Source of the DNA: a virus
Reading direction: 5' to 3' (one strand)
Length of the DNA stretch: 64,000 nt
IMG/VR virus record: IMGVR_UViG_3300032285_003860
Part shown: one piece after another, positions 2,608-54,104 of the stretch
Layout of the letters: each line of letters starts with the position of its first letter
How positions within the stretch are numbered: the stretch's first letter is position 1
Notes under the pieces: generated by a model
Databases searched by the model: none
The model's input: the letters and a program-made list of their open reading frames with translations, nothing else
Told to the model about the DNA's origin: nothing
Made by a program: the position numbers and the translations under genes

Positions 2608-5600
2608 ATGAATATTACGACAAATAATTCAATTAAAAATAATATTTTTGATGGCTCTTATCAAATTACTGTTTTGCCAATTCCTACTGGTTCGGCGTAT
2701 TCTTTTTGGTCTGGTAAAATACTCAATCCCGCTGGGATAACTGGGAGTCTTGTATATTTATCTGATGAACAAAGAGACTCTGGTTATCTTTTTTCTGGAT
2801 ACTCCTATACTGGAGACTCTTTTCCTTTTCCAAAGGGCGTTTTTTTAAGTGGAGCCACTTCAGAAACAACCTCCGTTAGTGGTTATTTATATTATTCTTT
2901 AAATACTCCATTATTAGGTGTTTGTCATGGAGTAGGAAATACGGGAGAAAATATGTGGTATAATGGTTATAATTTTTATAACGCATTTCATCCAGAGGGT
3001 ACTTTTTCTCCACCTTTTGGTCAAAATATTTCGGTTTATAAATCTAATTCAAATGGTACTGCTGCTCTTGCCGAAAATGGAAGCTGTTCGAGTTTGACAA
3101 GTCAAGAATATAATGATTTTTTTGGCATTGTTTCCAAAGCAGATGTAAACGCGGAGGCTTCTGCGGATGGTATTGCTAATGGTGGGACTTCATTTATTAA
3201 TTCTCCTGCTTATGCCTGTCCCGAAGAGGTTATTACGGTCTATTATTGGCACGAATCCCAATACAATATTATTGGTGGCACAGTTGGGGCAATAACGGCA
3301 AATACTTTTTTTAACACAAATCCGATTCCTACTTCTTTAGATAATTTTGATAGAAAAACTGATTTAAGATATTCTGTTTCTAGTGAACAGGGTGGAACTT
3401 TGCCAAATGGACAAAAAGAAACTATACAACATGTTTTATATGATGGTGGCGGAAAGCCAATTCCCGCTTATCAAACTGTTGGCGCAAATATTTTAAATAC
3501 TGTTTTGTGTCCATCTATTACCGCTGAAAGCTCTCTTTCCGTTGGAACACAAACAGAAAGTCAATTATTGCTTGCCGCAGATGTATTAAGTAATCCATCT
3601 AAAGGGTTTTTTGATTATTTTAATTGGTGGAATCTTTGGCACTTTCTTTACAAAGAAAATACTGATGGGTTTCCATTTCAAAATGATTATGGACTTTTTC
3701 AAGGCGAGGGGATAGTTATTCCAGCCGGTAGAAGCTCAAATTATGGTAGTCAACTTTTTGAGGCTCAAATTTCTAATGAAAATAATTATTGGGACAGAAG
3801 GCAGTGCCCAATGGGTATAAATTTTCTTCCGCATACATTTGGCGGAGCAATTTATGCTTGTCCATCTTATACTTTTGAAATTCCATATTACGCTGCAACT
3901 AAAAAATTTGGATTTTATGGAGCTAGATTTCTCGATGGATGCATTAGCTTAAGTTTAAATAATACTCTCAATGGACAGCCAAATTCCTCGGATTTACCAC
4001 CTAATTTTACTTATACTACCCCACAAGAAGAAGAGCCAAGCCCAGATGTTGGTACACTTTCAAGTAATAGTCGCTATGATAATCTTTTAGATATTGCCAA
4101 TAAAGAAGAATTACATTCTGACTTTTACGCCATGAATAAAGGATTATTCCTTTGGTCAAATTCTGGATTAATTAATTCGTCTCCTGATTTTATTAATTTA
4201 AGTTTAGTGCCAGGATTCTCTCAATTATTTACCAATTTATTGTCTCAATATTCTGCTGTTTTTCCTGGCGGAAAATCTGATATATTAAAAAATGATTATT
4301 TATATATTAGTGGAGAAGAAAGTCAGTTTTATGATACTGGTATTTATTCTTTGATATTGTCGCAGAATTCTAATTACAAAAATTTTAAAAATAATTTATA
4401 CGATCTTTTATCAGGATCTTTACAGATTAGCTATTGGAATAATATAGAAAAAGATTATTCATACGCTATTCTTTCTCAAAAAAATCAAGTTGATAATAGT
4501 TTCTATAGTCAATTGCAAGCTGGTAAACAATCAAGGTTTTTCACTAGGTATTTAGAAAATTATGTAAAAGGTAATTCCGTTGATTTGTATCCAACGAATA
4601 AGATTTATTTTAGTTATGATTCTGCTAGTAGTTATGTTGAAAGCTCTGGGTGGGCAAAATCCCCGAATTCTTTTGGAACAGCCAGTCATTTTGATCCAAA
4701 AATAACAAGAAGATATTTTCTTGGAGCATATAGTAATGGTCAAGATGTTACTGGAGTGGCTAATTTTTCTCAAAATTTCGCGGGGATTAATTTGAATAAT
4801 TACTCCTTTTATCCTGGATATTTTAATGGAAATATAGGATTAGAATTGCCTCCTCCTTCTTTTTTGCCCGTCATTTCTGGAGTATATGATTCAACAAATA
4901 ATCCTAACTTTAATAACGAATCAATTCAAGGAAATAGTTTTCCAGCAGTAACAAACGGTTGGAATTTAGTAGGATATAATGGAATAGGAAGATTAAATTT
5001 AAACTTCTCTTGTTTTACTCCTATATTTGTTCAAAACCCTCTTCCCATAACCCATTGTAAAATTGGTCAAGCTCCTACATTTAGGGCTTACGCAGTAGAT
5101 TATCATACTATTCCAGAAGATAAGATGAATAATCGCTATCCTGAAATTAGATATTGGATGGATAAGTTAAAAATAAGTAATGGCAATAAATCAGTCACAG
5201 CAAAAACGACAAACGCTTATCCATTGTCTTATAAATGGTATAGAATTAAAAAAAGTGATTGCACTGGATCAGTTTCTGACCCAACGATTCAAAATGGTGA
5301 CTTTAAGAAATTTTTATTAAATCCTGATTTTTCTAAAATAGTGCCCTCTAGTCAATCTGGTGAATGGTGCTGTTTGGAAGGTGATGACCAATATTGCACA
5401 TTAATCCATCCATCTGGATGCATCCCTCCATTGCCTTCTCCAATATCAAGTTTAAAATACAAGTATGCCAATTACCCAATGCAGCAAACTTTAAAACAAA
5501 ATAATTATAATATGACTTTTGTTAAGGGGGCGCAAAAAAATGAAGATGAAAACTATTATTACTTCTGTATGGCAAGGGGAAGATTTGGTATAAGAATAAG

Positions 5601-7458
5601 CGAGCCTTCTCAATTATTTATTGAAGATTGGATAGATTTTGATGTGAGTATGCGTAATGGAGGAAATAATGCATTCACAGCGAATAAAGCATTAACAGTC
5701 TCTTTCCAAGCTGGAGACGTGACCGTAAATTGTAACGCTTCTTCTGTTCCTTCTTACGCTGGATTCGTTCAAGATACTGATGCAATTCCAGAAGACGTAG
5801 TAGAAGAACAAATTCCTCCGCCAAATCGTGGATATGGAGATGTTTTTTCTTATAAATTTGTTGGACCATGGGGCTATAGAGGGGCAGTGCAAAGTTATAC
5901 TCCTGGAACATTAAATGATACAAGAGGACTTAGAGAAACCTGGGGTAGACTTTTACATTATGGTTCTCTTTTCCATTATCACAAACAGCTTTCTCAAACA
6001 GAAGGCGATGCCTTATATGGAAGAAATCACTTGCCAGTTTGTAACGCAGGGCATCAAATGTCCGACAAACAACAAGGCATAAAAGTTGTTGTAAATGGCA
6101 TCACTCATTGGGCCAATATGCAAAATCCTATTGCAGACACAAAGGGTAAATATGGAGTACTTTGGAGCAAGTTGGGTAATGCCGCAGAGCTTTATAATCC
6201 TGCCGTTTCTATTACAAATGGCGCTATTGACACTAGTCCATCGCCAGGATTAGGACAATGGCAATACGGAAACAACTTTGGAGCAATTCATAATTTTGGC
6301 TGGTTTAGTAATTTGATTGAGCCTGGCGGTAACACTAATGTCGAAAACGGTGATTTAACTACTACTCCTGGAACATTATCTACGACGGATTTTAAAAAGC
6401 TTAAAACAAATGTTCTTCCCGCTGGAACTCTTGCGGGGAAAAATTGTGGCTGGCACAAGGGCGGATTAGGAAGGTCTACTTCTTATTGGATAGAGGGTTT
6501 TAATGCTTTTTATGTTTTCTGCGACCCTTTAAAAAAGAAAAATGTTACAAATTATAGCTATATGAGTCCAGGATTGAGGCAGTCTAATAGCTCAATTCAA
6601 TATTTTTGGTTGGGTAAACCAAATAATTCATACCTCGAAAGATATCCAATGTTTGGTCCTTATGCTTACCAATGGAGGGTAAGAAGGCAAAATAGAGATA
6701 GAAATGGTAATGGTGTTTCAGAAGGCTTTTATTCTTATGGATGGGGATCAAACTATAGTTTAATGTATGATAATCCCGCCATTTATGGCCTTTTTATTAA
6801 ATATAAACAAAAAGATCAATCTGCTCTTGCACAGATTAATAGCTATAGAATTTCTGCATTTGGCTCTCCTGATGCAGCTTTAAGTGTTTCGCACACTAGA
6901 TTTGGATTTACAAATGGAGATGGTGGAGCGCGACCCTATCCTTCTCCTGGAATTTGGATAGGTAATATTTCCGACCCAACTCCAAATACAACCAGAGATT
7001 ATGTAAACAAAGGATATGCCAATGCTTTAAGCCCACAATTTTCTTTGTATGGATGTTCTGATGCTGATATTAATGCTGGAAACTGTTTTGATCCATGTAT
7101 TAGTATGAGATATCAAAATGGGTTCTTGCCAGGTGGCAAAAAACAAGATCTTTTTACAGCGAATAATTCATATCGTATCATTGCAAATAATCCAGTAGTA
7201 AATAATGTTACTGGCTCTTCAACAGTCGTTTTATCAGAAAACACTTATTTTCGTGGTCCTTTTGGTGCGCCACATATAAAATACTTGTCATCTTTGGGAA
7301 CAAAAGTAAATGGATTTTCCCCTTGTTTTGATGGCGGTGCAGATCATTGTAATTATATTACCCCCACTATTAACATTGGAGATTCAACTTACTATGAATC
7401 AAAGGGTCCAGTTATAATAAATACTGCAATAAGTGTATCGCAGGTCGTGAATTTTTAA
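2608..7458 (+). CDS. Large virion structural/adhesin-like protein with Ig-like domain
   Basis: 1616 aa, rich in S/G/N/Y/F and Cys; Ig-like motifs PIFVQNP..GQAPTF..LSYKWY..YYFCMARGRFG..SEPSQL. Confidence 0.55.
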   Translation: MNITTNNSIKNNIFDGSYQITVLPIPTGSAYSFWSGKILNPAGITGSLVYLSDEQRDSGYLFSGYSYTGDSFPFPKGVFLSGATSETTSVSGYLYYSLNTPLLGVCHGVGNTGENMWYNGYNFYNAFHPEGTFSPPFGQNISVYKSNSNGTAALAENGSCSSLTSQEYNDFFGIVSKADVNAEASADGIANGGTSFINSPAYACPEEVITVYYWHESQYNIIGGTVGAITANTFFNTNPIPTSLDNFDRKTDLRYSVSSEQGGTLPNGQKETIQHVLYDGGGKPIPAYQTVGANILNTVLCPSITAESSLSVGTQTESQLLLAADVLSNPSKGFFDYFNWWNLWHFLYKENTDGFPFQNDYGLFQGEGIVIPAGRSSNYGSQLFEAQISNENNYWDRRQCPMGINFLPHTFGGAIYACPSYTFEIPYYAATKKFGFYGARFLDGCISLSLNNTLNGQPNSSDLPPNFTYTTPQEEEPSPDVGTLSSNSRYDNLLDIANKEELHSDFYAMNKGLFLWSNSGLINSSPDFINLSLVPGFSQLFTNLLSQYSAVFPGGKSDILKNDYLYISGEESQFYDTGIYSLILSQNSNYKNFKNNLYDLLSGSLQISYWNNIEKDYSYAILSQKNQVDNSFYSQLQAGKQSRFFTRYLENYVKGNSVDLYPTNKIYFSYDSASSYVESSGWAKSPNSFGTASHFDPKITRRYFLGAYSNGQDVTGVANFSQNFAGINLNNYSFYPGYFNGNIGLELPPPSFLPVISGVYDSTNNPNFNNESIQGNSFPAVTNGWNLVGYNGIGRLNLNFSCFTPIFVQNPLPITHCKIGQAPTFRAYAVDYHTIPEDKMNNRYPEIRYWMDKLKISNGNKSVTAKTTNAYPLSYKWYRIKKSDCTGSVSDPTIQNGDFKKFLLNPDFSKIVPSSQSGEWCCLEGDDQYCTLIHPSGCIPPLPSPISSLKYKYANYPMQQTLKQNNYNMTFVKGAQKNEDENYYYFCMARGRFGIRISEPSQLFIEDWIDFDVSMRNGGNNAFTANKALTVSFQAGDVTVNCNASSVPSYAGFVQDTDAIPEDVVEEQIPPPNRGYGDVFSYKFVGPWGYRGAVQSYTPGTLNDTRGLRETWGRLLHYGSLFHYHKQLSQTEGDALYGRNHLPVCNAGHQMSDKQQGIKVVVNGITHWANMQNPIADTKGKYGVLWSKLGNAAELYNPAVSITNGAIDTSPSPGLGQWQYGNNFGAIHNFGWFSNLIEPGGNTNVENGDLTTTPGTLSTTDFKKLKTNVLPAGTLAGKNCGWHKGGLGRSTSYWIEGFNAFYVFCDPLKKKNVTNYSYMSPGLRQSNSSIQYFWLGKPNNSYLERYPMFGPYAYQWRVRRQNRDRNGNGVSEGFYSYGWGSNYSLMYDNPAIYGLFIKYKQKDQSALAQINSYRISAFGSPDAALSVSHTRFGFTNGDGGARPYPSPGIWIGNISDPTPNTTRDYVNKGYANALSPQFSLYGCSDADINAGNCFDPCISMRYQNGFLPGGKKQDLFTANNSYRIIANNPVVNNVTGSSTVVLSENTYFRGPFGAPHIKYLSSLGTKVNGFSPCFDGGADHCNYITPTINIGDSTYYESKGPVIINTAISVSQVVNF

Positions 7459-7479
7459 AGATATTAGTATAATAATAAA

Positions 7480-10400
7480 ATGAGTATCAATAGTCAATTA
7501 TTTGGTTTGGCGTCAGCAGTTGCCTATATAAGACAAGGCGGCGGCACCACAGCTAAAAATATTATACAGGGTATGAGCAATGCCTTTGGCGGCACCAATG
7601 ATGATGGGACATATGCATATAATTTGTTTCAGGCTGATACTGGCATACTTTATACAAATGGGTTTAATTTATCATATATAAGTTATGCTAACCTTGAAAA
7701 CACTGTGTCTCCTCTCGTTGGTAACATTCCCGTCCTAAATGTTGGTATTTCTGCTTTAACTTATGGGTATGGGAACTATTACTCTATTGGCGAGTCAAAT
7801 ATAGTAAATTATATAAATAAATTTAATACAGCAATGGGATATCCCAATATTTCTATTACTGAATCAGACTTTGATATCATTTTTTCTAGCTTATCTTTAG
7901 AAGGCATAAATAATGATGTAATAAATTCTCCTGATTCAGCAAACCCGATTGGTAAAAATGTCAATTATAATTGGTATGATTCTTCTGTTTTGTTTGGCTT
8001 AGATAAGTCTACTTCCCACGCCACATTAATTAAAGATATAGAAAATCAATATTATTACCTTACAGGAAAATTAATCTATGATCCTATTCCTGGAGATTTA
8101 GTAAAATGCATTTCTTCTGGAACACTGATAAATACTTCTAGTGGAGTAATTTTTACTAATTATATTTTAAATCAGCCTTGTTATGATGCGGATTCTTATA
8201 TCGGTCCTGTTTCTGGAATTAATTTTTTTAGAACATTTAATGATGGTCCAGGAACATCTGGATATTTTGATGATACCGTTACCCAAGAATATGTGAATTT
8301 TGATAAAGCTATTTTAGCAAAAGAAGATTATTCTTCAAACAATAGAGCTTTATATTCTTATCAAACTGATGAAAATGGCAATTATTTATTTTTGAAATCT
8401 GGAGTAAATATTGATGTTCCTGGAGTGTTTAATCCGTCAGAAGAATATGGAGCAGGACATACAAATAAAATATCTGCTGGACAGTATTGTTCTTTTACTG
8501 GATATTATGCAGAAGGCGTTCCATTAATGAGAATGCATCAAGGCGATAATCAATTAAAATGGAATGTCCAAAAGAGTTATGTCGGAGATTATCCTAATGG
8601 CATTTGTGTTATCACTAGCTCTTTGGAAAATTGGACTGGTTGGAAATTGGTTAATTTTGAACTTGATGAAAGTCAATCTGAATATTTTCAAAATGTCTTG
8701 ACAAATCCTGACGCCAATTTAAAAAGATTTTTAAAAAGATGTTTAAGTTTAACTAATTCAAAAGATTCTCATGGTAATCCAGTGACTCCTTATAGTTTGG
8801 TATATGAATATAATACTGGGGTATTGGCTTGCTATGGGCCTTATAATGCTCCGACTGATGAACTTGGTCATCTTATCCCAACTTATGTTGGTCCTCCTCA
8901 ATTAAATGGCTCTGCCGACTTGCCTGGACTTGCTTTTTATCAAACTTTTGATAATTCAAATTTCCCAGACTCAGGCGGAGAATATATTACAATTAATATT
9001 CGTCCAGTAATATCTAGTTCTTCTGCGGGATCAATAAATGGAGATTCTACAAGGACTTTTTCTTCCAGCGTCTCTAATTCTAATCTTTTTTCTTTGTCTG
9101 GGTCGTCCCATGCAGGTTTAAATGCCGCAAAATTAAGTTTTAATAAAAAAATTGATTCTTCGGGTCTTTCTGGTTACGATGATATATTCAAAAAATGTTT
9201 ATCTATTGGTGATAATTTTCAAAACTCTATTTCTGGAGCTTTATATCCACAATCGAATGCTGGATTTAATTATTCTGGTGGAATATATTTTTCTGGAAAC
9301 GAAATTGTGTATCCTCAAGACTTATTGCATTTGTCCAAACTTATTGGTTCAGAATATTCTGGCGTAATGTTTTTAACTGGGTTTCAAAATATAAATGATA
9401 ATTCTGTGTCATTGATAAACAGATATGATTCACAATTTTATACTGGTAATGTTTCTAATGGAGCAAAGACCGCTGGAGAAAATGTAGGATACTATTATTT
9501 TCAAGACACAATATTGGGTGCATCAAACGCTGGTTGGGAAAGTTTTTCTCCAATTCCTCCAGATGTTCAAAATGACGCTGATAATCTACCTTATCTTTCT
9601 GGTATATATTCTGGAATTTCTTTAACTAGTAAAGTAGAAAATTATTTACCAAGATATTATTCTGGACCATATAGAAGCTATTCTATAAAATTTTTATATC
9701 CAAATGCTTCTGGTGCAACAATCACATATGATTCTAAACTAAATGGATTTCCGTATAAAATTACGTATTCCATGACAATTAAAGAAGAATCTGTTAGAGA
9801 AGTATATGGCTTGTCTGGACTCTATAGCAGTCAGCAAAATTTATATCCTATTAGAGCCAATGCTTTTGGTGGAACATCTGCATTAAATGAATTAATGCCG
9901 ACCATGTTTTTAAGTCCATATACATATAATTTTAATGTAAATAAATCTATTTATCCAGATTCAGGGGGCTTTAATCATTCAGCTTCTTATGGTGGATTTG
10001 TTAATGGATTTTATGTTCCTAATTTTAGAAACAATATAAATGACCCATATAATGCGCCGAATTATTGTACTCAATCTTTTTTAAATAGTAACGCGTACCA
10101 AGATTCTTGTTCTTTTATAAATGGCATTAAAACTACTGGAAAAGTTAATTATAAAGTTATTTATACTGGCGGAGGACTTACAAAGAAAATTGGTTTTATT
10201 GAGCCAGCCCTAGATTCTACTTTGTTTTGGAATTATTCTTCAAATAAAATAACGGGAGAAGCTTTTTATGTTCCTCCAGTTTTTGATTTGTCTACATATA
10301 CAATTAATCCTTCTCAAAATTTATTAGACATGACTGTGAATAGATTGTTTGGTAAAAAAACTGATCCAACTTTTTCAAACAATGGTCTTGTAAGAACAGG

Positions 10401-12279
10401 TATTCTGGTCGATGGATTTGATCCAATTTTCTATGAGTATGTTGGTGGAAGAATTGGTTCTGGGGCAAATAATGAAGGTGGCTATAATAGCAAAAATATT
10501 ATTGGCGATCAATGGTTGGATTTTTACGCAAAAAATTGGGGAGTTTATAATGCCCCAAATTGCCCTAATTATGGTACTCACGAGGAGCGTCTTGCTAAGA
10601 ATGATAATTATTTGATACTTTCATCATTTACAAATAGCGGTCTAAATATTTATGCCAGAGGATTAAACTATTATCCCTATTTTAGCAATTGGACTTATAC
10701 TAAAATGAATGGGTTGGGCAATATAGGCGTTACAACCAGCCAAATTAATTTAAATGGTGAATCTTATTATAATTTTGATTTGCAAAATATATTCCCCACC
10801 AAAACTGTTCCATTAAGTGGTCAATTTTATTCTTCTGGCGGTTTTAATCTTGGACCTTTCCCTCAAGATGTTGAGCTTTGTGTTTCTGGAGCAGATTCTA
10901 TTATTCCAAGCGGTTATCTTTTTGTGGATGGAGAGCAAATGACTTTTAATTATCTCGGTAACTGTCCAATAAATAATATGGAAAATTTTGTTCCTAATTC
11001 TGGAATTATTACAAGTCAAGCTGGAAGAGGGTCTCTATTAACTACTTTTAAATTAATTCCTTCTGGTTCTTTTGTAAACTTAAATATAAAAAGTTTTACA
11101 TCTATTGGTTCAGGTTTAATTGGAATTACTGGAAAATCAACGGTGACCATTCGTCCAAGAACTTTGCTTGGCGCAGTCAATACTGATAATTATGATGATT
11201 ATGGGTATCCATTCATTTCTGGGGATTATCTCGCTAATATGAATGCTTCTAATTATATAAATAATGGCTCAGAAAGCATTTTCTCTGCAAATCTTAGTCA
11301 ATTTACAGATTTGATTGGTCAAAATATATCAAAGCAGACCCCAGTGCGTTCGGAGATAATTTTCCCCGTTCCTGGTCCTGATTTTATTCCTTATCTTAGT
11401 GGTTTGGGTCTAGTTACTTCGGACGCCAATGGAAATTATGTATTTACAACTACAAGAGGGCCCACTTATGATTATTGGGTAAATAAAAATCCTTATGCCT
11501 TATTTACTGGAATTAGAGAATCAACAAGGCTTTCAATTCAAATTGATAATATTTCTTTAGATTATTCTCCTGTACCATATCAAAGCTATAAAAATATTAT
11601 TGTGTCTGGGGCATGTACAATAAGCGGAGAATTTTCTTATACTGGACAAGCAGAAAGCGCAATACTTTCCCAAGGTATAGTTTTGTCGGGATGGACTGGA
11701 AGCGGATATTCTGCTGCTGTATTAAGAGATATTTCTGCGCCAATTTATGTTTCTGATATATTAAGTCGTCTTCCTGGAAATTTGCTTCCTTCTGGACAAG
11801 GGATAAACTATCTTTTAGAAGCCCCCTCTTTAATGAAAAAGAGAAAGCGCTTTTTTCAAATTACTGGTGGAGATACTTATATTGATGCTCCGCCTCCAGG
11901 GGTAACCAATTACAATAAATTCGCTTGGCCAGCTTTAAGTGATTTAGCTACTTTGAATCCAAACATTGTTTACGAACAGCTTCCTCCAGAAGATGGGTTT
12001 ATTTTTCCAACAGATAATTTAATATTTAGCGCATCTCAAGGGCAAGCGATTTTAACTGGAGCAACATCTGGAACAAAATTCAATCCAGTAGAAAACGTCA
12101 CCTATCAAGCAATTTTAAATTACGCTTTTCTAGATAGTACTGCGACTAATTCACTATATAATTCTGGAAAATGTATTTTTCCATTTACAGAAGGCTCTAA
12201 TATAATAAATAGCGGCAATCTAACTGGAGTACTCGTACAAGAGCGCACTCCTTTGGCAGTCTATATAAATTTCGTATAA
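7480..12279 (+). CDS. Large virion structural protein (tail fibre/baseplate-like)
   Basis: 1599 aa, composition rich in S/G/N/Y with many SG/TG dipeptides, tandem with the previous gene; no enzyme motifs. Confidence 0.5.
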   Translation: MSINSQLFGLASAVAYIRQGGGTTAKNIIQGMSNAFGGTNDDGTYAYNLFQADTGILYTNGFNLSYISYANLENTVSPLVGNIPVLNVGISALTYGYGNYYSIGESNIVNYINKFNTAMGYPNISITESDFDIIFSSLSLEGINNDVINSPDSANPIGKNVNYNWYDSSVLFGLDKSTSHATLIKDIENQYYYLTGKLIYDPIPGDLVKCISSGTLINTSSGVIFTNYILNQPCYDADSYIGPVSGINFFRTFNDGPGTSGYFDDTVTQEYVNFDKAILAKEDYSSNNRALYSYQTDENGNYLFLKSGVNIDVPGVFNPSEEYGAGHTNKISAGQYCSFTGYYAEGVPLMRMHQGDNQLKWNVQKSYVGDYPNGICVITSSLENWTGWKLVNFELDESQSEYFQNVLTNPDANLKRFLKRCLSLTNSKDSHGNPVTPYSLVYEYNTGVLACYGPYNAPTDELGHLIPTYVGPPQLNGSADLPGLAFYQTFDNSNFPDSGGEYITINIRPVISSSSAGSINGDSTRTFSSSVSNSNLFSLSGSSHAGLNAAKLSFNKKIDSSGLSGYDDIFKKCLSIGDNFQNSISGALYPQSNAGFNYSGGIYFSGNEIVYPQDLLHLSKLIGSEYSGVMFLTGFQNINDNSVSLINRYDSQFYTGNVSNGAKTAGENVGYYYFQDTILGASNAGWESFSPIPPDVQNDADNLPYLSGIYSGISLTSKVENYLPRYYSGPYRSYSIKFLYPNASGATITYDSKLNGFPYKITYSMTIKEESVREVYGLSGLYSSQQNLYPIRANAFGGTSALNELMPTMFLSPYTYNFNVNKSIYPDSGGFNHSASYGGFVNGFYVPNFRNNINDPYNAPNYCTQSFLNSNAYQDSCSFINGIKTTGKVNYKVIYTGGGLTKKIGFIEPALDSTLFWNYSSNKITGEAFYVPPVFDLSTYTINPSQNLLDMTVNRLFGKKTDPTFSNNGLVRTGILVDGFDPIFYEYVGGRIGSGANNEGGYNSKNIIGDQWLDFYAKNWGVYNAPNCPNYGTHEERLAKNDNYLILSSFTNSGLNIYARGLNYYPYFSNWTYTKMNGLGNIGVTTSQINLNGESYYNFDLQNIFPTKTVPLSGQFYSSGGFNLGPFPQDVELCVSGADSIIPSGYLFVDGEQMTFNYLGNCPINNMENFVPNSGIITSQAGRGSLLTTFKLIPSGSFVNLNIKSFTSIGSGLIGITGKSTVTIRPRTLLGAVNTDNYDDYGYPFISGDYLANMNASNYINNGSESIFSANLSQFTDLIGQNISKQTPVRSEIIFPVPGPDFIPYLSGLGLVTSDANGNYVFTTTRGPTYDYWVNKNPYALFTGIRESTRLSIQIDNISLDYSPVPYQSYKNIIVSGACTISGEFSYTGQAESAILSQGIVLSGWTGSGYSAAVLRDISAPIYVSDILSRLPGNLLPSGQGINYLLEAPSLMKKRKRFFQITGGDTYIDAPPPGVTNYNKFAWPALSDLATLNPNIVYEQLPPEDGFIFPTDNLIFSASQGQAILTGATSGTKFNPVENVTYQAILNYAFLDSTATNSLYNSGKCIFPFTEGSNIINSGNLTGVLVQERTPLAVYINFV

Positions 12280-41485: not shown

Positions 41486-41860
41486 GGGGACGTACTGGTT
41501 TCGATTTGCGAAAAACGACCTTAATTGCACACAGAGGATGATGGTTGGCCTCTTAAAATATCTATCAAAAACTCAACTGCTAACGCATTGAAATCGCTCG
41601 CTTTTGTGCCTGTTGTGGGCAGAGAAGTGGCTGCCGTAGCCTAATTGTTGGCTACCCGTTTGTCTCTTGATTCTCGCTATAGAGAACAAACGATATTGGC
41701 GAGAAAAAACGCAGGGGCTAATGTGCGTAATCAGGAGCTAAAAACTCAAAAGGAATGGAAAGTCAGTTCCAGTCTTTTGTTTTATCAAGTCTGACTAAGT
41801 GTGTAGAAATTTTGGGAGTTCGTTGCAAAGACGCGGGTTCAACTCCCGCCGTCTCCACCA
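41486..41860 (+). ncRNA. ssrA: tmRNA
   Basis: 5' GGGGACGTACTGGTTTCGA and 3' GCGGGTTCAACTCCCGCCGTCTCCACCA with G3.U70; tag ORF 41579-41644 ANALKSLAFVPVVGREVAAVA*. Confidence 0.93.
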
Positions 41861-50867: not shown

Positions 50868-50896
50868 TTGACAAAATTTTAACGAGTTGATATACT
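50868..50896 (+). promoter_or_regulatory. Strong sigma70 promoter of tRNA cluster
   Basis: TTGACA-N17-TATACT with extended TG. Confidence 0.75.
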
Positions 50897-50975: not shown

Positions 50976-51061
50976 GCATGGTTATTCCGTAGGAGTAGCG
51001 GGGCAGACTGTAAATCTGCTGCTTAATTGCTCGGGGAGTGCGACTCTCTCACCATGCACCA
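50976..51061 (+). tRNA. tRNA-Tyr(GTA)
   Basis: Acceptor GCATGGT/ACCATGC-A-CCA, anticodon arm GCAGA-CTGTAAA-TCTGC, long variable arm; T-loop TGCGACT. Confidence 0.88.
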
Positions 51062-51065
51062 TTTA

Positions 51066-51141
51066 CGAAGCGTAGGATAATGGCTATTCCGCCAGTTTTG
51101 GGTACTGGATATTGTGGATTCGAGTTCCACCGCTTCGACCA
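51066..51141 (+). tRNA. tRNA-Pro(TGG)
   Basis: Acceptor CGAAGCG/CGCTTCG-A-CCA, CCAGT-TTTGGGT-ACTGG, T-loop TTCGAGT. Confidence 0.92.
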
Positions 51142-51142
51142 T

Positions 51143-51514
51143 TTAATCAGCGTGAAGTTCTGCGTGGCAATTAGCGCAAATTAACTCGCATTTTTCGGCT
51201 TCTTTATAAGCAGCAGCTTTTCCTTTTAAAGCAAATAATTTACTAACTAAAGCTTCTTTTTTTAAAGGGTCTTTATGGTGAAAATGTAAAGCATCAAAAC
51301 ACTTATCATAAGAACACCTAGAGCATTTTCCCCCGTAAAGATTTTTTAATTCAAATAATTGAATTTTTCTATTTTTTCGGCGATATGCTAAAAATTTTTC
51401 TTTTGCTCCTTCGGCGCAATGATAATTAATTGTAGCTTTTGAGCAGTTTAGTATTTTGGAAATTTCACTATAAGATTTCCCTTTTTTTCTTAATTTGAGT
51501 ATTTTTTCTTTCAT
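51143..51514 (-). CDS. HNH endonuclease with N-terminal HTH
   Basis: GKSYSEISKILNCSKATI; CSRC...LHFHH.DP...CELICANCHAELH. Confidence 0.85.
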   Translation of the reverse strand: MKEKILKLRKKGKSYSEISKILNCSKATINYHCAEGAKEKFLAYRRKNRKIQLFELKNLYGGKCSRCSYDKCFDALHFHHKDPLKKEALVSKLFALKGKAAAYKEAEKCELICANCHAELHAD

Positions 51515-51614
51515 AAAAGAACTTACACAAGTTTAAATCATTTGAGAAGACTCGAACTATTTATGCGACAATAATCATAATTTAATTTTATGCGTTATAT
51601 AGCAGATAATTTAT

Positions 51615-51688
51615 GCGGTAGTGTTGTAGTAGTAGCAAACGAGTTTTCCAAACTTGGAGTGACGGGGCAGAACCGTCTTACCGCACCA
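51615..51688 (+). tRNA. tRNA-Gly(TCC), atypical
   Basis: Acceptor GCGGTAG/TTACCGC-A-CCA, CGAGT-TTTCCAA-ACTTG, T-arm GACGG-GGCAGAA-CCGTC. Confidence 0.82.
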
Positions 51689-51801
51689 TCTTTATACCCC
51701 CCGCAAACGCTATGCTATTGCAAAATAGCATCGACGCAGCATGAGACTAGGACACATGATGGTCTAGTGGACGCACTAGAATGGGGGTTTGTTAATTTCA
51801 T

Positions 51802-51876
51802 TCCAAAATAGCTCAATGGTGGAGCAAGATGCTGTTAACATCAAGGTTCTAGGTTCAAGTCCTAGTTTTGGAGCCA
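51802..51876 (+). tRNA. tRNA-Asn(GTT)
   Basis: Acceptor TCCAAAA/TTTTGGA-G-CCA, anticodon loop CTGTTAA, T-loop TTCAAGT. Confidence 0.93.
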
Positions 51877-51962
51877 ATTCTAATTATATGAAAAATATCT
51901 TTTTAGAGGTTTTTGAGCGTCTAATTATATGAAAATCTTTTCGCAGGTGCGAGAATGGTGGA

Positions 51963-51991
51963 GGCGCAGGGAAACCTGCGCCCTTTTAATT
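51963..51991 (+). terminator. Terminator-like hairpin
   Basis: GGCGCAGG-GAAA-CCTGCGCC followed by CTTTTAATT. Confidence 0.6.
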
Positions 51992-51992
51992 T

Positions 51993-52121
51993 ATGTTTAA
52001 ATATTTAATAATAATTTCTTTGTTTTTGGCAGGTGGATGTAGCTCAATGCAGCAAAATCAAAATTCTGATTCTCCAAATATTATGATAATTGGTGGTTAT
52101 GTGTTAGTAATGCCAGAATAG
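51993..52121 (+). CDS. Small lipoprotein (42 aa)
   Basis: MFKYLIIISLFLAGGCSS lipobox. Confidence 0.5.
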   Translation: MFKYLIIISLFLAGGCSSMQQNQNSDSPNIMIIGGYVLVMPE

Positions 52122-52202
52122 AGTGTAAGCCATTATGAGTGATTATTTTTTGGATAATGTTAGGAATTTGTTTTTTATATTTATGTAAAAATAAAGATTA
52201 AC

Positions 52203-52276
52203 TCCCGCTTAGTATAAAAGTATTACAAGAGACTTTGAATCTCAAGAAATTGGAGCATTACCAGTAGCGGGAACCA
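52203..52276 (+). tRNA. tRNA-Gln(TTG), atypical elbow
   Basis: Acceptor TCCCGCT/AGCGGGA-A-CCA, GAGA-CTTTGAA-TCTC, T-arm ATTGG-AGCATTA-CCAGT. Confidence 0.82.
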
Positions 52277-52297
52277 TAAAGCCGTGTATTATAAATT

Positions 52298-52588
52298 ATG
52301 AGTAATAAATATTATTTAGAAATCAATTTGTTAAGCAATGCAGACATAGAATCTGATGCAAGAGACATTTCCTATAAATCTCGCAAGGAAATGAAAGATA
52401 GTGATTTTCTTGACCCAGAAAATCGCAGTTTTCCAGTCACAACCTGTGAAGATGTAATGGCAGCAGTTCACGCATGGGGAAGATATAAAGGCTCAATGAG
52501 CTTTGAAACTTTTAAAGCTAAACTCACTCGCAAAGCGCATCAACTTGGATGCAAACTTCCAGAAAGCTGGACAGAAAAAAAGGATTAA
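52298..52588 (+). CDS. Hypothetical phage protein
   Basis: SDFLDPENRSFPV...DV.AAV.AWGRY motif. Confidence 0.6.
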   Translation: MSNKYYLEINLLSNADIESDARDISYKSRKEMKDSDFLDPENRSFPVTTCEDVMAAVHAWGRYKGSMSFETFKAKLTRKAHQLGCKLPESWTEKKD

Positions 52589-52589
52589 T

Positions 52590-52883
52590 ATGCCCTCAGT
52601 AAAAAAAGGTGAGAAACAATCTCACTATATGCACCGCTGCGTACCTATGCTCATCAAAGAAGGCAAGAAGCAAGACCAAGCTGTAGCTCAATGCCTTTCC
52701 ATGTTTAAACAAAAATGGAAAGCAAAAGGCGAAGAAGTACCAGATGAATCATCCGCTGAATTTCAAAATGCCCTTGCCAACTTTGATTGGGATAATTGCC
52801 CCGAATGTCTTGCTAGAGAATCAGAAGCAAATCATAAAATCGGCATATTTAATATTGACTTTCCAAATAAAAAACTTTCTTAA
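52590..52883 (+). CDS. Hypothetical phage protein
   Basis: MPSVKKGE...YM.RCVP.LIKEG...DQAVAQC.SM; ATG at 52590. Confidence 0.6.
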   Translation: MPSVKKGEKQSHYMHRCVPMLIKEGKKQDQAVAQCLSMFKQKWKAKGEEVPDESSAEFQNALANFDWDNCPECLARESEANHKIGIFNIDFPNKKLS

Positions 52884-52886
52884 ATT

Positions 52887-53633
52887 GTGCAAAATATAAT
52901 TGAAATAGATTTTAGCGAACTTAACAGTTTTAGTTCTTTAGGTTTTAATAAAGAATCATTAACAAATACAATTAATTATTTATCAAATAAAAATAAAGTT
53001 TTAGTTTTGGCTACTTCCAATCGCTGGGAAGGCGGCGATTATGAACCAGCAAAATCAACGCAACTTGCCCAATTTGTTACTAAAAAGTTAGGTTCTAAAG
53101 CCTCTTTTATTGATGTTAGCAAATTACATATTGAAATTTGCGAAGGAAATGTTTCAACTAATTTAGGCAATCGTTGCGGATTAAAAGATGCTTCATTAAA
53201 AGACAAAGACAAAAATCCAAGTGGATACCATCGTTGTTGGGCAAGCATAAACAATCAAGACGATGAATTATGGAAGATTAGCAAAGAGCTTTTTCAAAGC
53301 GATGCAGTATTATTTTTTACTTCTATCCGATGGGGGCAAACAAATAGCATTTATCAAAAATTAATAGAAAGATTAGACTGGATTGAAAATCGCCACACCA
53401 CTTTGGGCGAAGATAATATAGTTAAAAACATAGACGCAGGAATTATTGCCATTGGTCAAAATTGGAATGGGAAAAACGTAATAAATACAGAATCTCAAGT
53501 TTTAAAGTATTTTGGTTTCAAAACCCCCAGCGAATTAGCTTGGAATTGGCAATATACAAGCAATGACTTGGATGAATCTCAAGAAAGTTATAAGGCGGCA
53601 GTCAAATCTTTTGATAAAACTTTTTTAACTTGA
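52887..53633 (+). CDS. Flavodoxin-like / NAD(P)H-dependent FMN reductase family protein
   Basis: TSNR..KSTQLA, CEG...C..C, SDAVLFFTSIRWG...YQKLIERL. Confidence 0.75.
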   Translation: MQNIIEIDFSELNSFSSLGFNKESLTNTINYLSNKNKVLVLATSNRWEGGDYEPAKSTQLAQFVTKKLGSKASFIDVSKLHIEICEGNVSTNLGNRCGLKDASLKDKDKNPSGYHRCWASINNQDDELWKISKELFQSDAVLFFTSIRWGQTNSIYQKLIERLDWIENRHTTLGEDNIVKNIDAGIIAIGQNWNGKNVINTESQVLKYFGFKTPSELAWNWQYTSNDLDESQESYKAAVKSFDKTFLT

Positions 53634-53662
53634 CATTTTTAGCCGTAAGAGTTAATATAATT

Positions 53663-53745
53663 ATACAGAGTCACCCTTAATTTTGCTGTTTCTTGGGGGC
53701 TTATATTTGCTGAAGCACAACAGCGCCAAGCAAATAACTTTGTAT
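53663..53745 (+). ncRNA. Candidate three-way-junction RNA with kissing loops
   Basis: P1 ATACAGAGT/ACTTTGTAT, P2 CCCTTAA/TTGGGGG, P3 TATTTGCT/AGCAAATA; loops TGCTGTT and AACAGCG are complementary. Confidence 0.45.
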
Positions 53746-53795
53746 TTTGTGTCGCATCCCGATAGGAGGATTCCATAAGGGTCGGCACATTTTTT

Positions 53796-53870
53796 GCCGG
53801 ATAAGCATAGATAGCGATGCAGGGGTTTTGTAAACCTCAGAGGAGAGCGCAAGTCTCTCATTTGGCTCCA
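53796..53870 (+). tRNA. tRNA-Thr(TGT), atypical elbow
   Basis: Acceptor GCCGGAT/ATTTGGC-T-CCA, GGGGT-TTTGTAA-ACCTC, T-arm GAGAG-CGCAAGT-CTCTC. Confidence 0.82.
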
Positions 53871-53930
53871 TTTTGTCAGCAGACCCCCGCCGCCTCTTAA
53901 TAATGCGTAATCGTGGGGGTGTTTAATTTT

Positions 53931-54006
53931 GGGAGATTAGCTCAGTTAGTAGAGTAGCTCGCTTACACCGAGAAGGTCACAGGAGCAAAGCCTGTATCTC
54001 CCACCA
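53931..54006 (+). tRNA. tRNA-Val(TAC), atypical elbow
   Basis: Acceptor GGGAGAT/ATCTCCC-A-CCA, CTCG-CTTACAC-CGAG, T-arm ACAGG-AGCAAAG-CCTGT. Confidence 0.88.
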
Positions 54007-54015
54007 TTTTAAATT

Positions 54016-54104
54016 GGATGAGTAACCAGACAGGCGAACTGGAACCGACTTGAAATCGGCTTGTTCCTTACGGGAATGGGTTTCGACTACTCACTCATCC
54101 GCCA
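54016..54104 (+). tRNA. tRNA-Ser(TGA)
   Basis: Acceptor GGATGAG/CTCATCC-G-CCA, CCGA-CTTGAAA-TCGG, long variable arm, T-loop TTCGACT. Confidence 0.9.

What the first reader, a model, noticed from the sequence alone, without database searches (positions are those of the whole stretch)
50976..54104. Systematic rewiring of the tRNA elbow: G18/U55 replaced by A18/G55
Seen: T-loops of Gly (GGCAGAA), Gln (AGCATTA), Thr (CGCAAGT), Val (AGCAAAG) and Tyr (TGCGACT) all have G55-C56 instead of TTC. In Gly, Gln, Thr and Val the D-loop GG is AG; Tyr is ambiguous. Pro, Asn and Ser keep both GG and TTC. Co-variation across unrelated isotypes with intact stems and CCA argues for selection rather than decay. 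Inference: these tRNAs would not need TrmA/TruB modification and may evade host anti-phage tRNA nucleases or elbow-reading factors. I cannot confirm how far this has been described.
Basis: partly seen in the sequence, partly recalled or inferred. Interest (0 to 1): 0.72.

Follow-up and report, generated by a model that had tools for sequence, protein, structure and literature searches.

The report
Phage tRNAs with rewired elbow
Five of at least eleven tRNA genes in this uncultured freshwater-type phage replace the near-universal tRNA corner contact G18-U55 with a strictly matched A18-G55; they look like working tRNAs built on an alternative corner that I did not find described for tRNA in the papers searched.

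Summary
On the + strand, tRNA-Tyr, Gly, Gln, Thr and Val (50976-54006) have G55-C56 T-loops and A18-G19 D-loops. Pro, Asn and Ser keep GG and TTC, as do Arg, Leu and Ile just beyond the window. The Tyr ambiguity is settled by homology: it is A18.

These are not decaying genes. All have 19-21 of 21 cloverleaf pairs and an encoded CCA. A relative whose flanking genes are 91-96% identical keeps all eight, with 1.6% change; six of the ten changes form three compensatory stem pairs, and no elbow base changes.

The swap is general. Among tRNAs in viral contigs not chosen for their loops: GG/TC 297, AG/GC 41, AG/TC 1, GG/GC 0. It also occurs in cells. The only tRNA-Thr(UGU) found in a Saccharibacteria genome is of this type, so the corner probably works in translation.

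The structural logic is known from riboswitches, whose T-loops have G at position 2 and an intercalating adenosine. The outer G19:C56 face is kept.

G55 cannot be made into pseudouridine. The idea of escape from defence nucleases is untested, but a published T-loop nuclease loses activity when U55 is mutated.

This scan has noted the same swap on other DNA in over 100 genomes. My full-text searches found no paper describing it.

The parts
50868..50896 (+). Promoter-like site (TTGACA, 17 nt, TATACT, with TG) ahead of the Tyr-Pro pair
   Evidence: 11 of 12 matches. This is a consensus match only, and the number of such sites in the region is not above the shuffles.
50976..51061 (+). tRNA-Tyr(GUA), long variable arm, rewired elbow: A18-G19 in D-loop GTAGGAGTA, T-loop TGCGACT (U54 G55 C56 G57 A58), A73, CCA
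   Evidence: The alignment with canonical phage tRNA-Tyr shows GG to AG and TTC to TGC. A compensatory 27:43 G:C to A:U change is seen in relative L375.
51066..51141 (+). tRNA-Pro(UGG), canonical elbow (GG; TTCGAGT), 4 nt after Tyr
   Evidence: Identical in L375.
51615..51688 (+). tRNA-Gly(UCC), rewired: D-loop AGTAGTA (A18-G19), T-loop GGCAGAA (G54 G55 C56 A57 G58), A73, CCA
   Evidence: Rfam 42.2 bits. 21 of 21 stem pairs. Identical in L375.
51802..51876 (+). tRNA-Asn(GUU), canonical elbow (GG; TTCAAGT)
   Evidence: Two compensatory stem changes in L375, at 5:68 and 52:62.
51963..51982 (+). Terminator-like hairpin with a T-run after Asn
   Evidence: 8 pairs, 7 of them G-C. Pattern match only.
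52203..52276 (+). tRNA-Gln(UUG), rewired: D-loop AAAAGTA (A18-G19), T-loop AGCATTA (A54 G55 C56 A57 U58), U1:A72, CCA
   Evidence: Rfam 43.4 bits.. L375 differs at four structure-tolerant positions, including A57 to G57 and a G:U to A:U change.
53630..53658 (+). Promoter-like site (TTGACA, 17 nt, TAATAT) ahead of the Thr-Val-Ser block
   Evidence: 10 of 12 matches. Consensus match only.
53796..53870 (+). tRNA-Thr(UGU), rewired: A8, D-loop AGATAGCG (A18-G19), T-loop CGCAAGT (C54 G55 C56 A57 A58), CCA
   Evidence: 21 of 21 stem pairs. Not reported by Rfam. Identical in L375. The same D-loop type recurs in other viral tRNA-Thr genes, in L133, L176 and L191.
53931..54006 (+). tRNA-Val(UAC), rewired: D-loop AGTTAGTA (A18-G19), T-loop AGCAAAG (A54 G55 C56 A57 A58), A73, CCA
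   Evidence: (55.5 bits). Homologous to the canonical tRNA-Val of cyanophage Syn30, with the same acceptor stem. Identical in L375.
54016..54104 (+). tRNA-Ser(UGA), long variable arm, canonical T-loop TTCGACT, 9 nt after Val
   Evidence: Relaxed ARAGORN and reading. Identical in L375.

Best explanation
The five genes encode working elongator tRNAs that decode codons this AT-rich phage uses heavily. They are built on an alternative inner elbow. A18 takes the place of G18 as the base that slips between positions 57 and 58 of the T-loop, and it contacts G55 instead of pseudouridine 55.

This is the same rule that riboswitch T-loops follow: G at loop position 2, with an intercalating adenosine from the partner loop. 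In these tRNAs the 54-58 pair is also free to vary. The outer face (G19:C56), G53:C61 and purine 57 are kept, so factors that stack on that face should still recognise the molecule.

Shown: the sequence pattern, its strict covariation, purifying selection, and its presence as the only tRNA-Thr(UGU) found in a bacterial genome.

Inferred: the three-dimensional contact, expression, charging, and use on the ribosome in this phage.

Why phages favour this corner is open. My split is: a near-neutral alternative spreading within a mobile pool of phage tRNAs, about 0.4; resistance to nucleases that read U54-U55, about 0.25; correct folding without host TruB, TrmA or TrmH modification, about 0.2.
For: 1. 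Intact genes. The seven tRNAs the loop-agnostic scan finds, which include all five rewired ones, have 19-21 of 21 stem pairs, U33 and A37. All eight tRNAs have an encoded CCA. The acceptor and discriminator features that I recall from the tRNA identity literature fit bacterial synthetases: Tyr G1:C72 and A73 with a long variable arm, Val A73, Thr G1:C72 and C2:G71, Gln U1:A72.

2. Rewired and canonical genes are interleaved 4 and 9 nt apart (Tyr-Pro, Val-Ser), behind promoter-like sites.

3. Purifying selection. Relative L375 has flanking genes 91-96% identical but only 10 changes in 625 tRNA positions. Six of these form three compensatory stem pairs, and none falls at position 18, 19, 55 or 56.

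4. Covariation elsewhere.
- Seeding on an A18 D-arm in viral contigs: 58 of 61 parsed tRNAs have G55.
- Neighbouring tRNAs not chosen by loop sequence: GG/TC 297, AG/GC 41, AG/TC 1, GG/GC 0, spread over 14 loci and 28 anticodons.
- Seeding on one T-arm that differs only at position 55: with G55, 5 of 6 have AG and none has GG; with U55, 71 of 71 have GG.

5. Homology. The window's Tyr and Val belong to phage tRNA families whose cultured members are canonical. They differ from those at the two elbow positions, alongside other substitutions.

6. Use in cells. In 85 parsed bacterial hits, 75 A18 D-arms go with G55. In a Saccharibacteria genome, the only tRNA-Thr(UGU) among about 46 tRNAs is A18/G55 and all the others are canonical.

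7. Structural precedent. FMN and cobalamin riboswitch T-loops are YGNRA with an intercalating adenosine (99.96% A), whereas tRNA T-loops differ by having U at position 2; an rRNA T-loop reads GGAAG (bioRxiv 10.1101/2022.12.26.521914). The G55 tRNAs match this: 54-58 is U-A in 64% and G-G in 19%, and position 57 is A in 62%, against G in 77% of U55 tRNAs.

8. Codon fit. CAA is 78%, CCA 53%, GGA 45%, ACA 36% and GTA 29% of their codon families in 55 window ORFs.
Against:
- The host is unknown, so codon supplementation cannot be compared with host usage.
- Rfam does not report Thr or Tyr.
- tRNA-Gly has A73, where I recall U73 as usual for bacterial tRNA-Gly. tRNA-Thr has A8.
- The A18-G55 contact is inferred by analogy with riboswitch T-loops and is not seen in any tRNA structure.
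- Val (A54-A58), Gly (G54-G58) and Gln (A54-U58) fall outside the Y-A closing pair of the riboswitch consensus.
- The covariation counts are not corrected for shared ancestry.
- The Saccharibacteria genome is an 800-kb multi-contig assembly, so a second tRNA-Thr(UGU) could have been missed.
Confidence: 0.8

Rival explanations
1. Counter-defence is the driving selection. G55, and loss of U54 in four of the five, makes the phage's own tRNAs immune to host nucleases that recognise the UUC of the T-loop, so translation of phage messages survives when host tRNAs are cut. This would add a reason to the best explanation rather than replace it.
For: - The type III CRISPR-associated Schlafen nuclease CbCash cleaves 28 E. 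coli tRNAs, mainly in the T-loop, 5' of U55.
- Single U54 or U55 mutations abolish that cleavage, and its authors say it is open whether phage tRNAs are targeted (PMC13462974).
- Some viral contigs carry many rewired tRNAs: 11 and 8 rewired neighbours in L172 and L191.
Against: - The same corner is used by single chromosomal tRNAs of Saccharibacteria, Parcubacteria and others whose neighbouring tRNAs are canonical. That is not what nuclease escape predicts.
- Here only 5 of at least 11 phage tRNAs are rewired. Cleavage of the other six and of host tRNAs would still stop translation.
- No such nuclease is known for this phage's unidentified host.
Confidence: 0.25
2. Independence from modification is the driving selection. 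G55 supplies from its own base the hydrogen bonds that stabilise the T-loop turn. Such tRNAs, made in a burst during infection, would then fold correctly without pseudouridine 55, m5U54 or Gm18 from host enzymes.
For: - G55, A18 and non-U54 cannot receive these modifications; this follows directly from the sequence.
- In T-loops, the base at position 2 is placed to bond to the backbone of nucleotide 5, and G is the usual base there outside tRNA.
- The 54-58 pair is freed from U-A in the G55 class.
Against: - No stability measurements exist.
- Six tRNAs of the same phage keep the canonical, modifiable corner.
- Tyr keeps U54.
Confidence: 0.2
3. Host matching. The phage infects a lineage whose own tRNAs commonly use A18/G55, and its tRNAs simply copy the host style.
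For: A18/G55 tRNAs are frequent in candidate-phyla-radiation bacteria, Omnitrophota and some Bacilli assemblies.
Against: - In those bacteria only one or a few tRNAs per genome are rewired: 1 of about 46 in the Saccharibacteria genome, and 3 AG/GC against 113 GG/TC among neighbouring tRNAs.
- The window's Tyr and Val are closest to phage tRNAs of enterobacterial phages and cyanophages, which are canonical.
Confidence: 0.1
4. These are not translation tRNAs. They would be kept out of the ribosome and act as decoys, primers or amino-acid donors, like the non-proteogenic tRNA-Gly species of staphylococci.
For: The S. aureus NP1-3 tRNA-Gly species lack G18-G19 and U55 and are excluded from translation (PMC13443448).
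Against: - The window's five keep G19:C56 and normal 7-nt anticodon loops.
- They cover five amino acids and match heavily used phage codons.
- A tRNA of the same class is the only ACA decoder found in a bacterial genome.
Confidence: 0.06
5. The five are decaying pseudogenes, or an artefact of how the loops were read.
For: Standard finders miss three or four of the five: ARAGORN at default finds only Val, and Rfam misses Thr and Tyr.
Against: - Stems are complete and CCA is encoded.
- The tRNAs diverge 1.6% against 4-9% in flanking genes, with compensatory pairs.
- The same two-position swap recurs in hundreds of independent genes.
Confidence: 0.02

Closest known systems
Canonical bacterial and phage elongator tRNAs (Rfam RF00005), including phage tRNA clusters such as those of Vequintavirinae, Ounavirinae and T4-like cyanophages
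   Same: - The cloverleaf, U33 and A37, G19:C56, G53:C61, purine 57 and encoded CCA are all present.
- The genes are clustered and match codons preferred by the phage.
- The window's Tyr and Val are recognisable homologues of canonical phage tRNA-Tyr and tRNA-Val.
   Different: - G18 and U55, described in reviews as highly or universally conserved, are replaced by A18 and G55.
- U54-A58 is replaced in four of the five.
T-loop and T-loop-receptor modules of FMN and cobalamin riboswitches (YGNRA T-loop with an intercalating adenosine; Batey laboratory, bioRxiv 10.1101/2022.12.26.521914)
   Same: - G at T-loop position 2, a purine at position 4, and an adenosine as the presumed donated base.
- The Tyr (UGCGA) and Thr (CGCAA) loops fit YGNRA exactly.
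- The wider G55 class prefers A at position 57, as the riboswitch loops prefer A at position 4.
   Different: - The setting is a tRNA elbow, where position 3 (C56) still pairs with G19.
- Val, Gly and Gln have A-A, G-G and A-U closing pairs.
- No structure shows the A18-G55 contact in a tRNA.
Non-proteogenic tRNA-Gly (NP1-3) of Staphylococcus aureus and S. epidermidis
   Same: These are natural bacterial tRNAs that lack G18 and U55 (PMC13443448).
   Different: [quoted passage not shown]
- The window's tRNAs keep G19:C56 and normal anticodon loops and span five amino acids.
Phage tRNAs that escape anticodon-loop nucleases (Azam et al. 2024, PMC11555353, cited in PMC13462974; other examples recalled from memory)
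   Same: Phage-encoded tRNAs whose sequence differs from host tRNAs at a site read by a defence nuclease.
   Different: - The known cases change the anticodon loop of one isotype.
- Here the change is in the elbow, across five isotypes, and no matching nuclease has been tested.
A18/G55 chromosomal tRNAs of Saccharibacteria (tRNA-Thr UGU) and Parcubacteria or Nomurabacteria (tRNA-Phe GAA), seen here
   Same: The same A18-G19 with G55-C56 corner and the same T-loop types, GGCAGAG and TGCAAAT.
   Different: These are single housekeeping genes in cellular genomes, not a set within a phage cluster. I found no paper describing them.

Membership tests
Elongator tRNA (Rfam RF00005) | Cloverleaf with 7-bp acceptor, 3-4-bp D, 5-bp anticodon and 5-bp T stems, and 7-nt anticodon and T loops | tested here: met
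   19-21 of 21 pairs for Tyr, Gly, Gln, Thr and Val.
Elongator tRNA (Rfam RF00005) | Score at or above the Rfam gathering threshold of 29 bits | tested here: inconclusive
   Val 55.5, Gln 43.4 and Gly 42.2 bits pass. Thr and Tyr are not reported even at E up to 10.
Elongator tRNA (Rfam RF00005) | U33 and a purine at position 37 in the anticodon loop | tested here: met
   The loops are CTGTAAA, TTTCCAA, CTTTGAA, TTTGTAA and CTTACAC.
Elongator tRNA (Rfam RF00005) | Conserved elbow G18-G19 with T54-U55-C56 and A58 | tested here: not met
   All five have A18 and G55. G19 and C56 are kept. The 54-58 pair is U-A only in Tyr. This departure is the finding itself.
Elongator tRNA (Rfam RF00005) | Transcribed, processed, aminoacylated and used on the ribosome | not testable with these tools
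The support is indirect: purifying selection, and a tRNA of the same class that is the only ACA decoder found in a bacterial genome.
   All five window tRNAs fit.
Riboswitch-type T-loop with receptor (YGNRA plus intercalating A) | G at T-loop position 2 and a purine at position 4 | tested here: met
   Positions 55-58 read GCGA, GCAG, GCAU, GCAA and GCAA. Position 57 is a purine in all five.
Riboswitch-type T-loop with receptor (YGNRA plus intercalating A) | [quoted passage not shown] | tested here: inconclusive
   Met by Tyr (U-A) and Thr (C-A). Not met by Val (A-A), Gly (G-G) or Gln (A-U).
Riboswitch-type T-loop with receptor (YGNRA plus intercalating A) | The adenosine from the partner loop intercalates between positions 4 and 5 | not testable with these tools
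   Inferred from A18 standing in place of G18. No RNA 3D tool or solved structure was available.
Staphylococcal non-proteogenic tRNA-Gly | Loss of both G18 and G19 and of U55, an extra 31-38 pair, and glycine only | tested here: not met
   G19 is retained, the anticodon loops are the normal 7 nt, and five isotypes are involved (set against PMC13443448).

The most novel reading that the evidence does not exclude
The A18/G55 corner is a general, built-in counter-defence and autonomy device of phage tRNAs. By removing the U54-U55 site, it would make them invisible to T-loop-directed immune nucleases of the Schlafen (Cash) type and independent of host TruB, TrmA and TrmH. Keeping the G19:C56 face would still let the ribosome, RNase P and synthetases use them. 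Its presence in a few cellular tRNAs would then reflect the same pressure or transfer from phages.
Probability: 0.2. Interest if true: 0.85.

Novelty: new variant of a known kind. Interest (0 to 1): 0.62.

Why it matters
- Pseudouridine 55 and G18 are treated in reviews as near-invariant parts of every cytoplasmic tRNA, and tRNA finders are tuned to them.
- A second, strictly coupled design that works in phages and in at least some bacteria shows that the inner elbow is replaceable. It also ties the tRNA elbow to the general rule for T-loops and their receptors.
- It explains why default gene finders miss such tRNAs: here ARAGORN missed four of the five and Rfam missed two.
- It gives a natural test set for how TruB, TrmA, TrmH, EF-Tu, RNase P and the ribosome read the elbow.
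- It makes one open question directly testable: whether phage tRNAs escape the newly described T-loop nucleases.

Tried and rejected
- No whole genome is held for the window. There is therefore no expression evidence and no full tRNA census.
- Relatives fetched through the flavodoxin-like gene at 52887-53633 (80 viral loci) and the ferritin-like gene (54 viral loci) carry none of this tRNA cluster. Only the metagenome scan gave a close relative, L375.
- A covariance model built from Pro, Asn and Val (R1) was too narrow and missed Gly and Thr. I replaced it with a loop-agnostic cloverleaf scanner.
- BLAST of the rewired tRNAs against about 50,000 phage records gave canonical homologues for Val and nothing for Gly. 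A rewired tRNA-Thr and a rewired tRNA-Pro taken from other viral loci likewise gave mostly partial or canonical matches, or none. The only rewired candidate I saw in a cultured phage is one unannotated gene in Sinorhizobium phage Phosso.
- The DnaE-type polymerase is under 30% identical across its length to anything in the phage collection, so no host could be inferred.
- Pfam and PHROGs scans of 29 window ORFs found no tRNA-modifying, repair or CCA-adding enzyme.
- Rfam on the spacers gave nothing above threshold; the best was an abiF-like hairpin at 25.4 bits against a cut-off of 37.
- Literature. 'A18' with 'G55' and 'tRNA' returned no relevant paper. Searches on phage tRNA T-loops and D-loops found nothing relevant. 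The L-array paper has no occurrence of T-loop, G18 or U55 in its text. 'Purine trap' is not in the held library, so my recollection of in-vivo selection work on D-loop and T-loop variants by the Steinberg laboratory could not be checked.

Full report
**What the window is**

The window has 33.5% G+C. It encodes a DnaE-type polymerase, a DnaB-type helicase, a UvsX-like recombinase, ribonucleotide reductase and several glycosyltransferases, and a tmRNA at 41486-41860. It is identical to part of a 162,952-bp metagenome scaffold (ENA ERZ28593878) and to a Logan contig from run ERR2848522. Nothing in about 50,000 phage records is close: there is no megablast match, and the polymerase is under 30% identical across its length. 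No whole genome is held for it. Notes from other windows of the same scaffold describe virion genes, so I treat it as a large uncultured phage with an unknown host.

**Checking the observation**

Reading the sequence, relaxed ARAGORN and a cloverleaf scanner that ignores loop sequence give eight + strand tRNAs, all with an encoded CCA:

| tRNA | Coordinates | T-loop | D-loop |
|---|---|---|---|
| Tyr-GUA | 50976-51061 | TGCGACT | GTAGGAGTA |
| Pro-UGG | 51066-51141 | TTCGAGT | has GG |
| Gly-UCC | 51615-51688 | GGCAGAA | AGTAGTA |
| Asn-GUU | 51802-51876 | TTCAAGT | has GG |
| Gln-UUG | 52203-52276 | AGCATTA | AAAAGTA |
| Thr-UGU | 53796-53870 | CGCAAGT | AGATAGCG |
| Val-UAC | 53931-54006 | AGCAAAG | AGTTAGTA |
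| Ser-UGA | 54016-54104 | TTCGACT | not parsed |

The scanner finds seven of the eight, with 19-21 of 21 stem pairs. It misses Ser, which has a 3-bp D stem. Its four other hits in the 64-kb window lack a CCA tail.

Standard tools are biased against these genes. Default ARAGORN reports only Pro, Asn and Val. Rfam gives Val 55.5, Gln 43.4 and Gly 42.2 bits and nothing for Thr, Tyr or Ser.

Against canonical tRNA-Tyr of Escherichia phage LTH01 and Hafnia phage Zyzzx, the D-loop differs by GG to AG and the T-loop by TTC to TGC. So all five G55 tRNAs have A18 and all three U55 tRNAs have G18 (p = 0.018).

A locus reaching past the window end adds Arg-UCU, Leu-UAA and Ile-UAU, all canonical. The phage therefore has at least 11 tRNAs, five of them rewired.

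**Are they live genes?**

A metagenome scan found a relative, L375, on a 168-kb contig. Its flanking genes are 91-96% identical to the window's. It keeps all eight tRNAs.

- Only 10 of 625 tRNA positions differ (1.6%).
- Six of those ten are three compensatory pairs: Tyr 27:43 G:C to A:U, Asn 5:68 A:U to G:C, and Asn 52:62 G:C to A:U.
- Gln has a G:U to A:U change, A57 to G57, a D-loop change outside positions 18-19, and a change at position 43, which faces A27 in an already mismatched pair.
- Gly, Thr, Val, Pro and Ser are identical.
- No position 18, 19, 55 or 56 changes.

Rewired and canonical genes sit 4 and 9 nt apart (Tyr-Pro, Val-Ser), behind promoter-like sites at 50868-50896 and 53630-53658. 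They are presumably transcribed and processed together.

The acceptor and discriminator features that I recall from the tRNA identity literature fit bacterial-type synthetases. The exceptions are A73 in tRNA-Gly, where I recall U73 as usual, and A8 in tRNA-Thr.

The anticodons match heavily used codons. CAA is 78%, CCA 53%, GGA 45%, ACA 36% and GTA 29% of their codon families in 55 window ORFs.

**Is the coupling general?**

I ran three tests.

- **Seeding on the D-arm in viral contigs.** An exact A18 D-arm (TAGCTCAGTTAGTAGAG) occurs in 114 IMG/VR stretches. Of 61 that parse as cloverleaves, 58 have G55-C56 and 3 have TTC.
- **Neighbours not chosen by loop sequence.** Among distinct tRNAs in those loci that were not picked by the pattern, the table is GG/TC 297, AG/GC 41, AG/TC 1, GG/GC 0 (p = 3e-52, uncorrected for relatedness). 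The 41 come from 14 loci and 28 anticodons.
- **Seeding on the T-arm.** I used one T-arm that differs only at position 55. With G55, 5 of 6 distinct tRNAs have AG and none has GG. With U55, 71 of 71 have GG.

Within the G55 class, G53:C61 is kept in 127 of 128 and position 57 is always a purine (A in 62%, against G in 77% of U55 tRNAs). The 54-58 pair is relaxed: U-A 64% and G-G 19%, with U-G, A-A, C-C, A-U, C-A and A-G making up the rest. In U55 tRNAs it is U-A in 93%. The window's T-loop types recur in unrelated viral tRNAs, either exactly (GGCAGAA, AGCATTA, AGCAAAG, TGCGACT) or, for Thr, as the close variant CGCAAAT.

**Not phage-only**

Of the 85 hits that parse, 75 have G55. Many are in Saccharibacteria (tRNA-Thr UGU, T-loop GGCAGAG) and in Parcubacteria or Nomurabacteria (tRNA-Phe GAA). 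Others are in Omnitrophota and in Bacilli assemblies. Their neighbouring tRNAs are canonical: 113 GG/TC against 3 AG/GC.

I listed all tRNAs of one Saccharibacteria genome. Of about 46, the only tRNA-Thr(UGU) is the A18/G55 one. The CGU and GGU threonine tRNAs and everything else are canonical. By the standard wobble rules, ACA needs a UGU anticodon. The rewired tRNA must therefore work in translation there, unless the 800-kb multi-contig assembly has lost another copy. That is made unlikely by the same gene recurring in about 20 other Saccharibacteria assemblies with compensatory acceptor-stem changes.

**How it most likely works**

In the canonical elbow, G18 intercalates between positions 57 and 58 and bonds to pseudouridine 55. 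G19 pairs with C56, and the outer face of that pair is what the L1 stalk, RNase P and T-boxes stack on (PMC4810234).

The Batey laboratory's survey of riboswitch T-loops reports the following (bioRxiv 10.1101/2022.12.26.521914):
- UGNRA in 88.7% and CGNRA in 10.9% of loops;
- the partner loop donating an adenosine in 99.96% of cases;
- tRNA T-loops standing apart by having U at position 2;
- an rRNA T-loop that reads GGAAG.

The rewired tRNAs follow this non-tRNA rule. They have G at position 2, adenosine as the presumed intercalator, a preference for A at position 4, and U-A, C-A or G-G closing pairs. I therefore read A18/G55 as the tRNA elbow rebuilt on the commoner T-loop/receptor solution, with the outer face untouched. 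The sequence pattern is shown. The three-dimensional contact is inferred.

Independence from TruB follows directly from G55. Four of the five also lack U54, and A18 cannot carry Gm18.

Escape from factors that read the elbow by stacking on G19:C56 is unlikely, because that pair is kept.

Escape from nucleases is untested but has a concrete candidate. CbCash, a type III CRISPR-associated Schlafen nuclease, cuts tRNAs 5' of U55. Single U54 or U55 mutations abolish the cut, and its authors leave open whether phage tRNAs are targeted (PMC13462974).

Three points count against defence escape as the sole driver:
- single rewired housekeeping tRNAs occur in cells;
- six of this phage's eleven tRNAs stay canonical;
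- no nuclease is known for the unidentified host.

Staphylococcal non-proteogenic tRNA-Gly species also lack G18-G19 and U55 and are kept out of translation (PMC13443448). They lose G19 as well, have a shortened anticodon loop, and are glycine-only, so the window's genes are not of that kind.

**Novelty and verdict**

Full-text searches for A18 with G55 and tRNA, and for phage tRNA T-loops and D-loops, found no description of this swap. Two reviews call these bases highly or universally conserved. The L-array paper has no occurrence of T-loop, G18 or U55 in its text. Subscription journals are not covered, and I could not check older in-vivo selection work on D-loop and T-loop variants.

This scan has already noted the same swap on other DNA: 121 notes in at least 106 genomes. 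The counts and tests reported here are my own.

I rate it a new variant of a known kind. These are real tRNAs with an alternative, coupled inner elbow whose structural logic is known from other RNAs. This window is a moderate example, with 5 of at least 11 tRNAs rewired.

Noticed in passing
window 53659-53795: A structured leader lies between the promoter-like site at 53630 and tRNA-Thr. It folds as a three-way junction (about 53663-53745), then a hairpin, then a run of U immediately before the tRNA (fold z = -2.8). The 162-nt segment 53634-53795 that contains it is 161 of 162 identical in relative L375, while flanking genes differ by 4-9%. It may be an attenuator or an unknown small RNA. No Rfam match.
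   Followed up: partly
window 51696-51788: A cloverleaf-like four-way junction sits between tRNA-Gly and tRNA-Asn. It is closed by ACCCCC/GGGGGU, with a GCAA-tetraloop arm and a GACG-loop arm, and has no CCA or T-loop. It is 97% conserved in L375. tRNA processing would release it. Function unknown.
   Followed up: partly
window 53886-53918: A hairpin in the Thr-Val spacer weakly resembles the abiF RNA motif (25.4 bits, cut-off 37, E = 0.2). This is probably chance, but the spacer is 97% conserved in L375.
   Followed up: no
window 41486-41860: A phage-encoded tmRNA (128 bits) with the tag peptide ANALKSLAFVPVVGREVAAVA. Its T-arm is canonical (GGGTTCAACTCCC), unlike the five rewired tRNAs.
   Followed up: no
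window 51143-51514 (- strand) and L375:2570-2814: A 123-aa helix-turn-helix gene lies between tRNA-Pro and tRNA-Gly. It is absent from relative L375, where Pro and Gly are adjacent. L375 instead has a 245-nt insertion just upstream of tRNA-Tyr, with a promoter-like site and a G+C-rich structured stretch ending in a hairpin and a T-run. The tRNA island is a hotspot for small insertions.
   Followed up: partly
L633:14412-14668 (686-942 nt beyond the window end): A second tRNA block holds Arg(UCU), Leu(UAA) and Ile(UAU), all with canonical elbows and CCA. A UAU-anticodon isoleucine tRNA is unusual for bacteria-type decoding. Nine of the 11 tRNAs have U34.
   Followed up: partly
window 51615-51688 and 53796-53870: tRNA-Gly has discriminator A73 where I recall U73 as usual for bacterial tRNA-Gly. 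tRNA-Thr has A8 instead of U8. A8 and the D-loop AGATAGCG recur in rewired tRNA-Thr genes of unrelated viral contigs (L133, L176, L191), which suggests a distinct phage tRNA-Thr lineage.
   Followed up: no
L372:2634-2706 (Sinorhizobium phage Phosso, PV764938.1): An unannotated tRNA-Pro(UGG)-like gene with T-loop GGCGGCG and no GG in the D-loop lies between two annotated tRNA-Leu genes of a cultured 469-kb phage. It shares its acceptor stem (CAGGGTA/TACCCTG) with rewired tRNA-Pro genes of IMG/VR contigs. Its tail is ACTA, not ACCA. This could be a culturable test system.
   Followed up: no
L085, L089, L105, L106 and about 15 other loci from IMG sample 3300045988: A recurrent tRNA-like gene has an A18/G55 elbow (T-loop TGCGGYT), anticodon loop ATACCAT (anticodon ACC, with A34) and no encoded CCA. 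It is nearly identical across many contigs of 40-75 kb. It is either an unusual glycine tRNA or not a decoding tRNA.
   Followed up: no
window 2608-12279: Two adjacent ORFs of 1616 and 1599 aa have no Pfam match at E <= 0.001.
   Followed up: no
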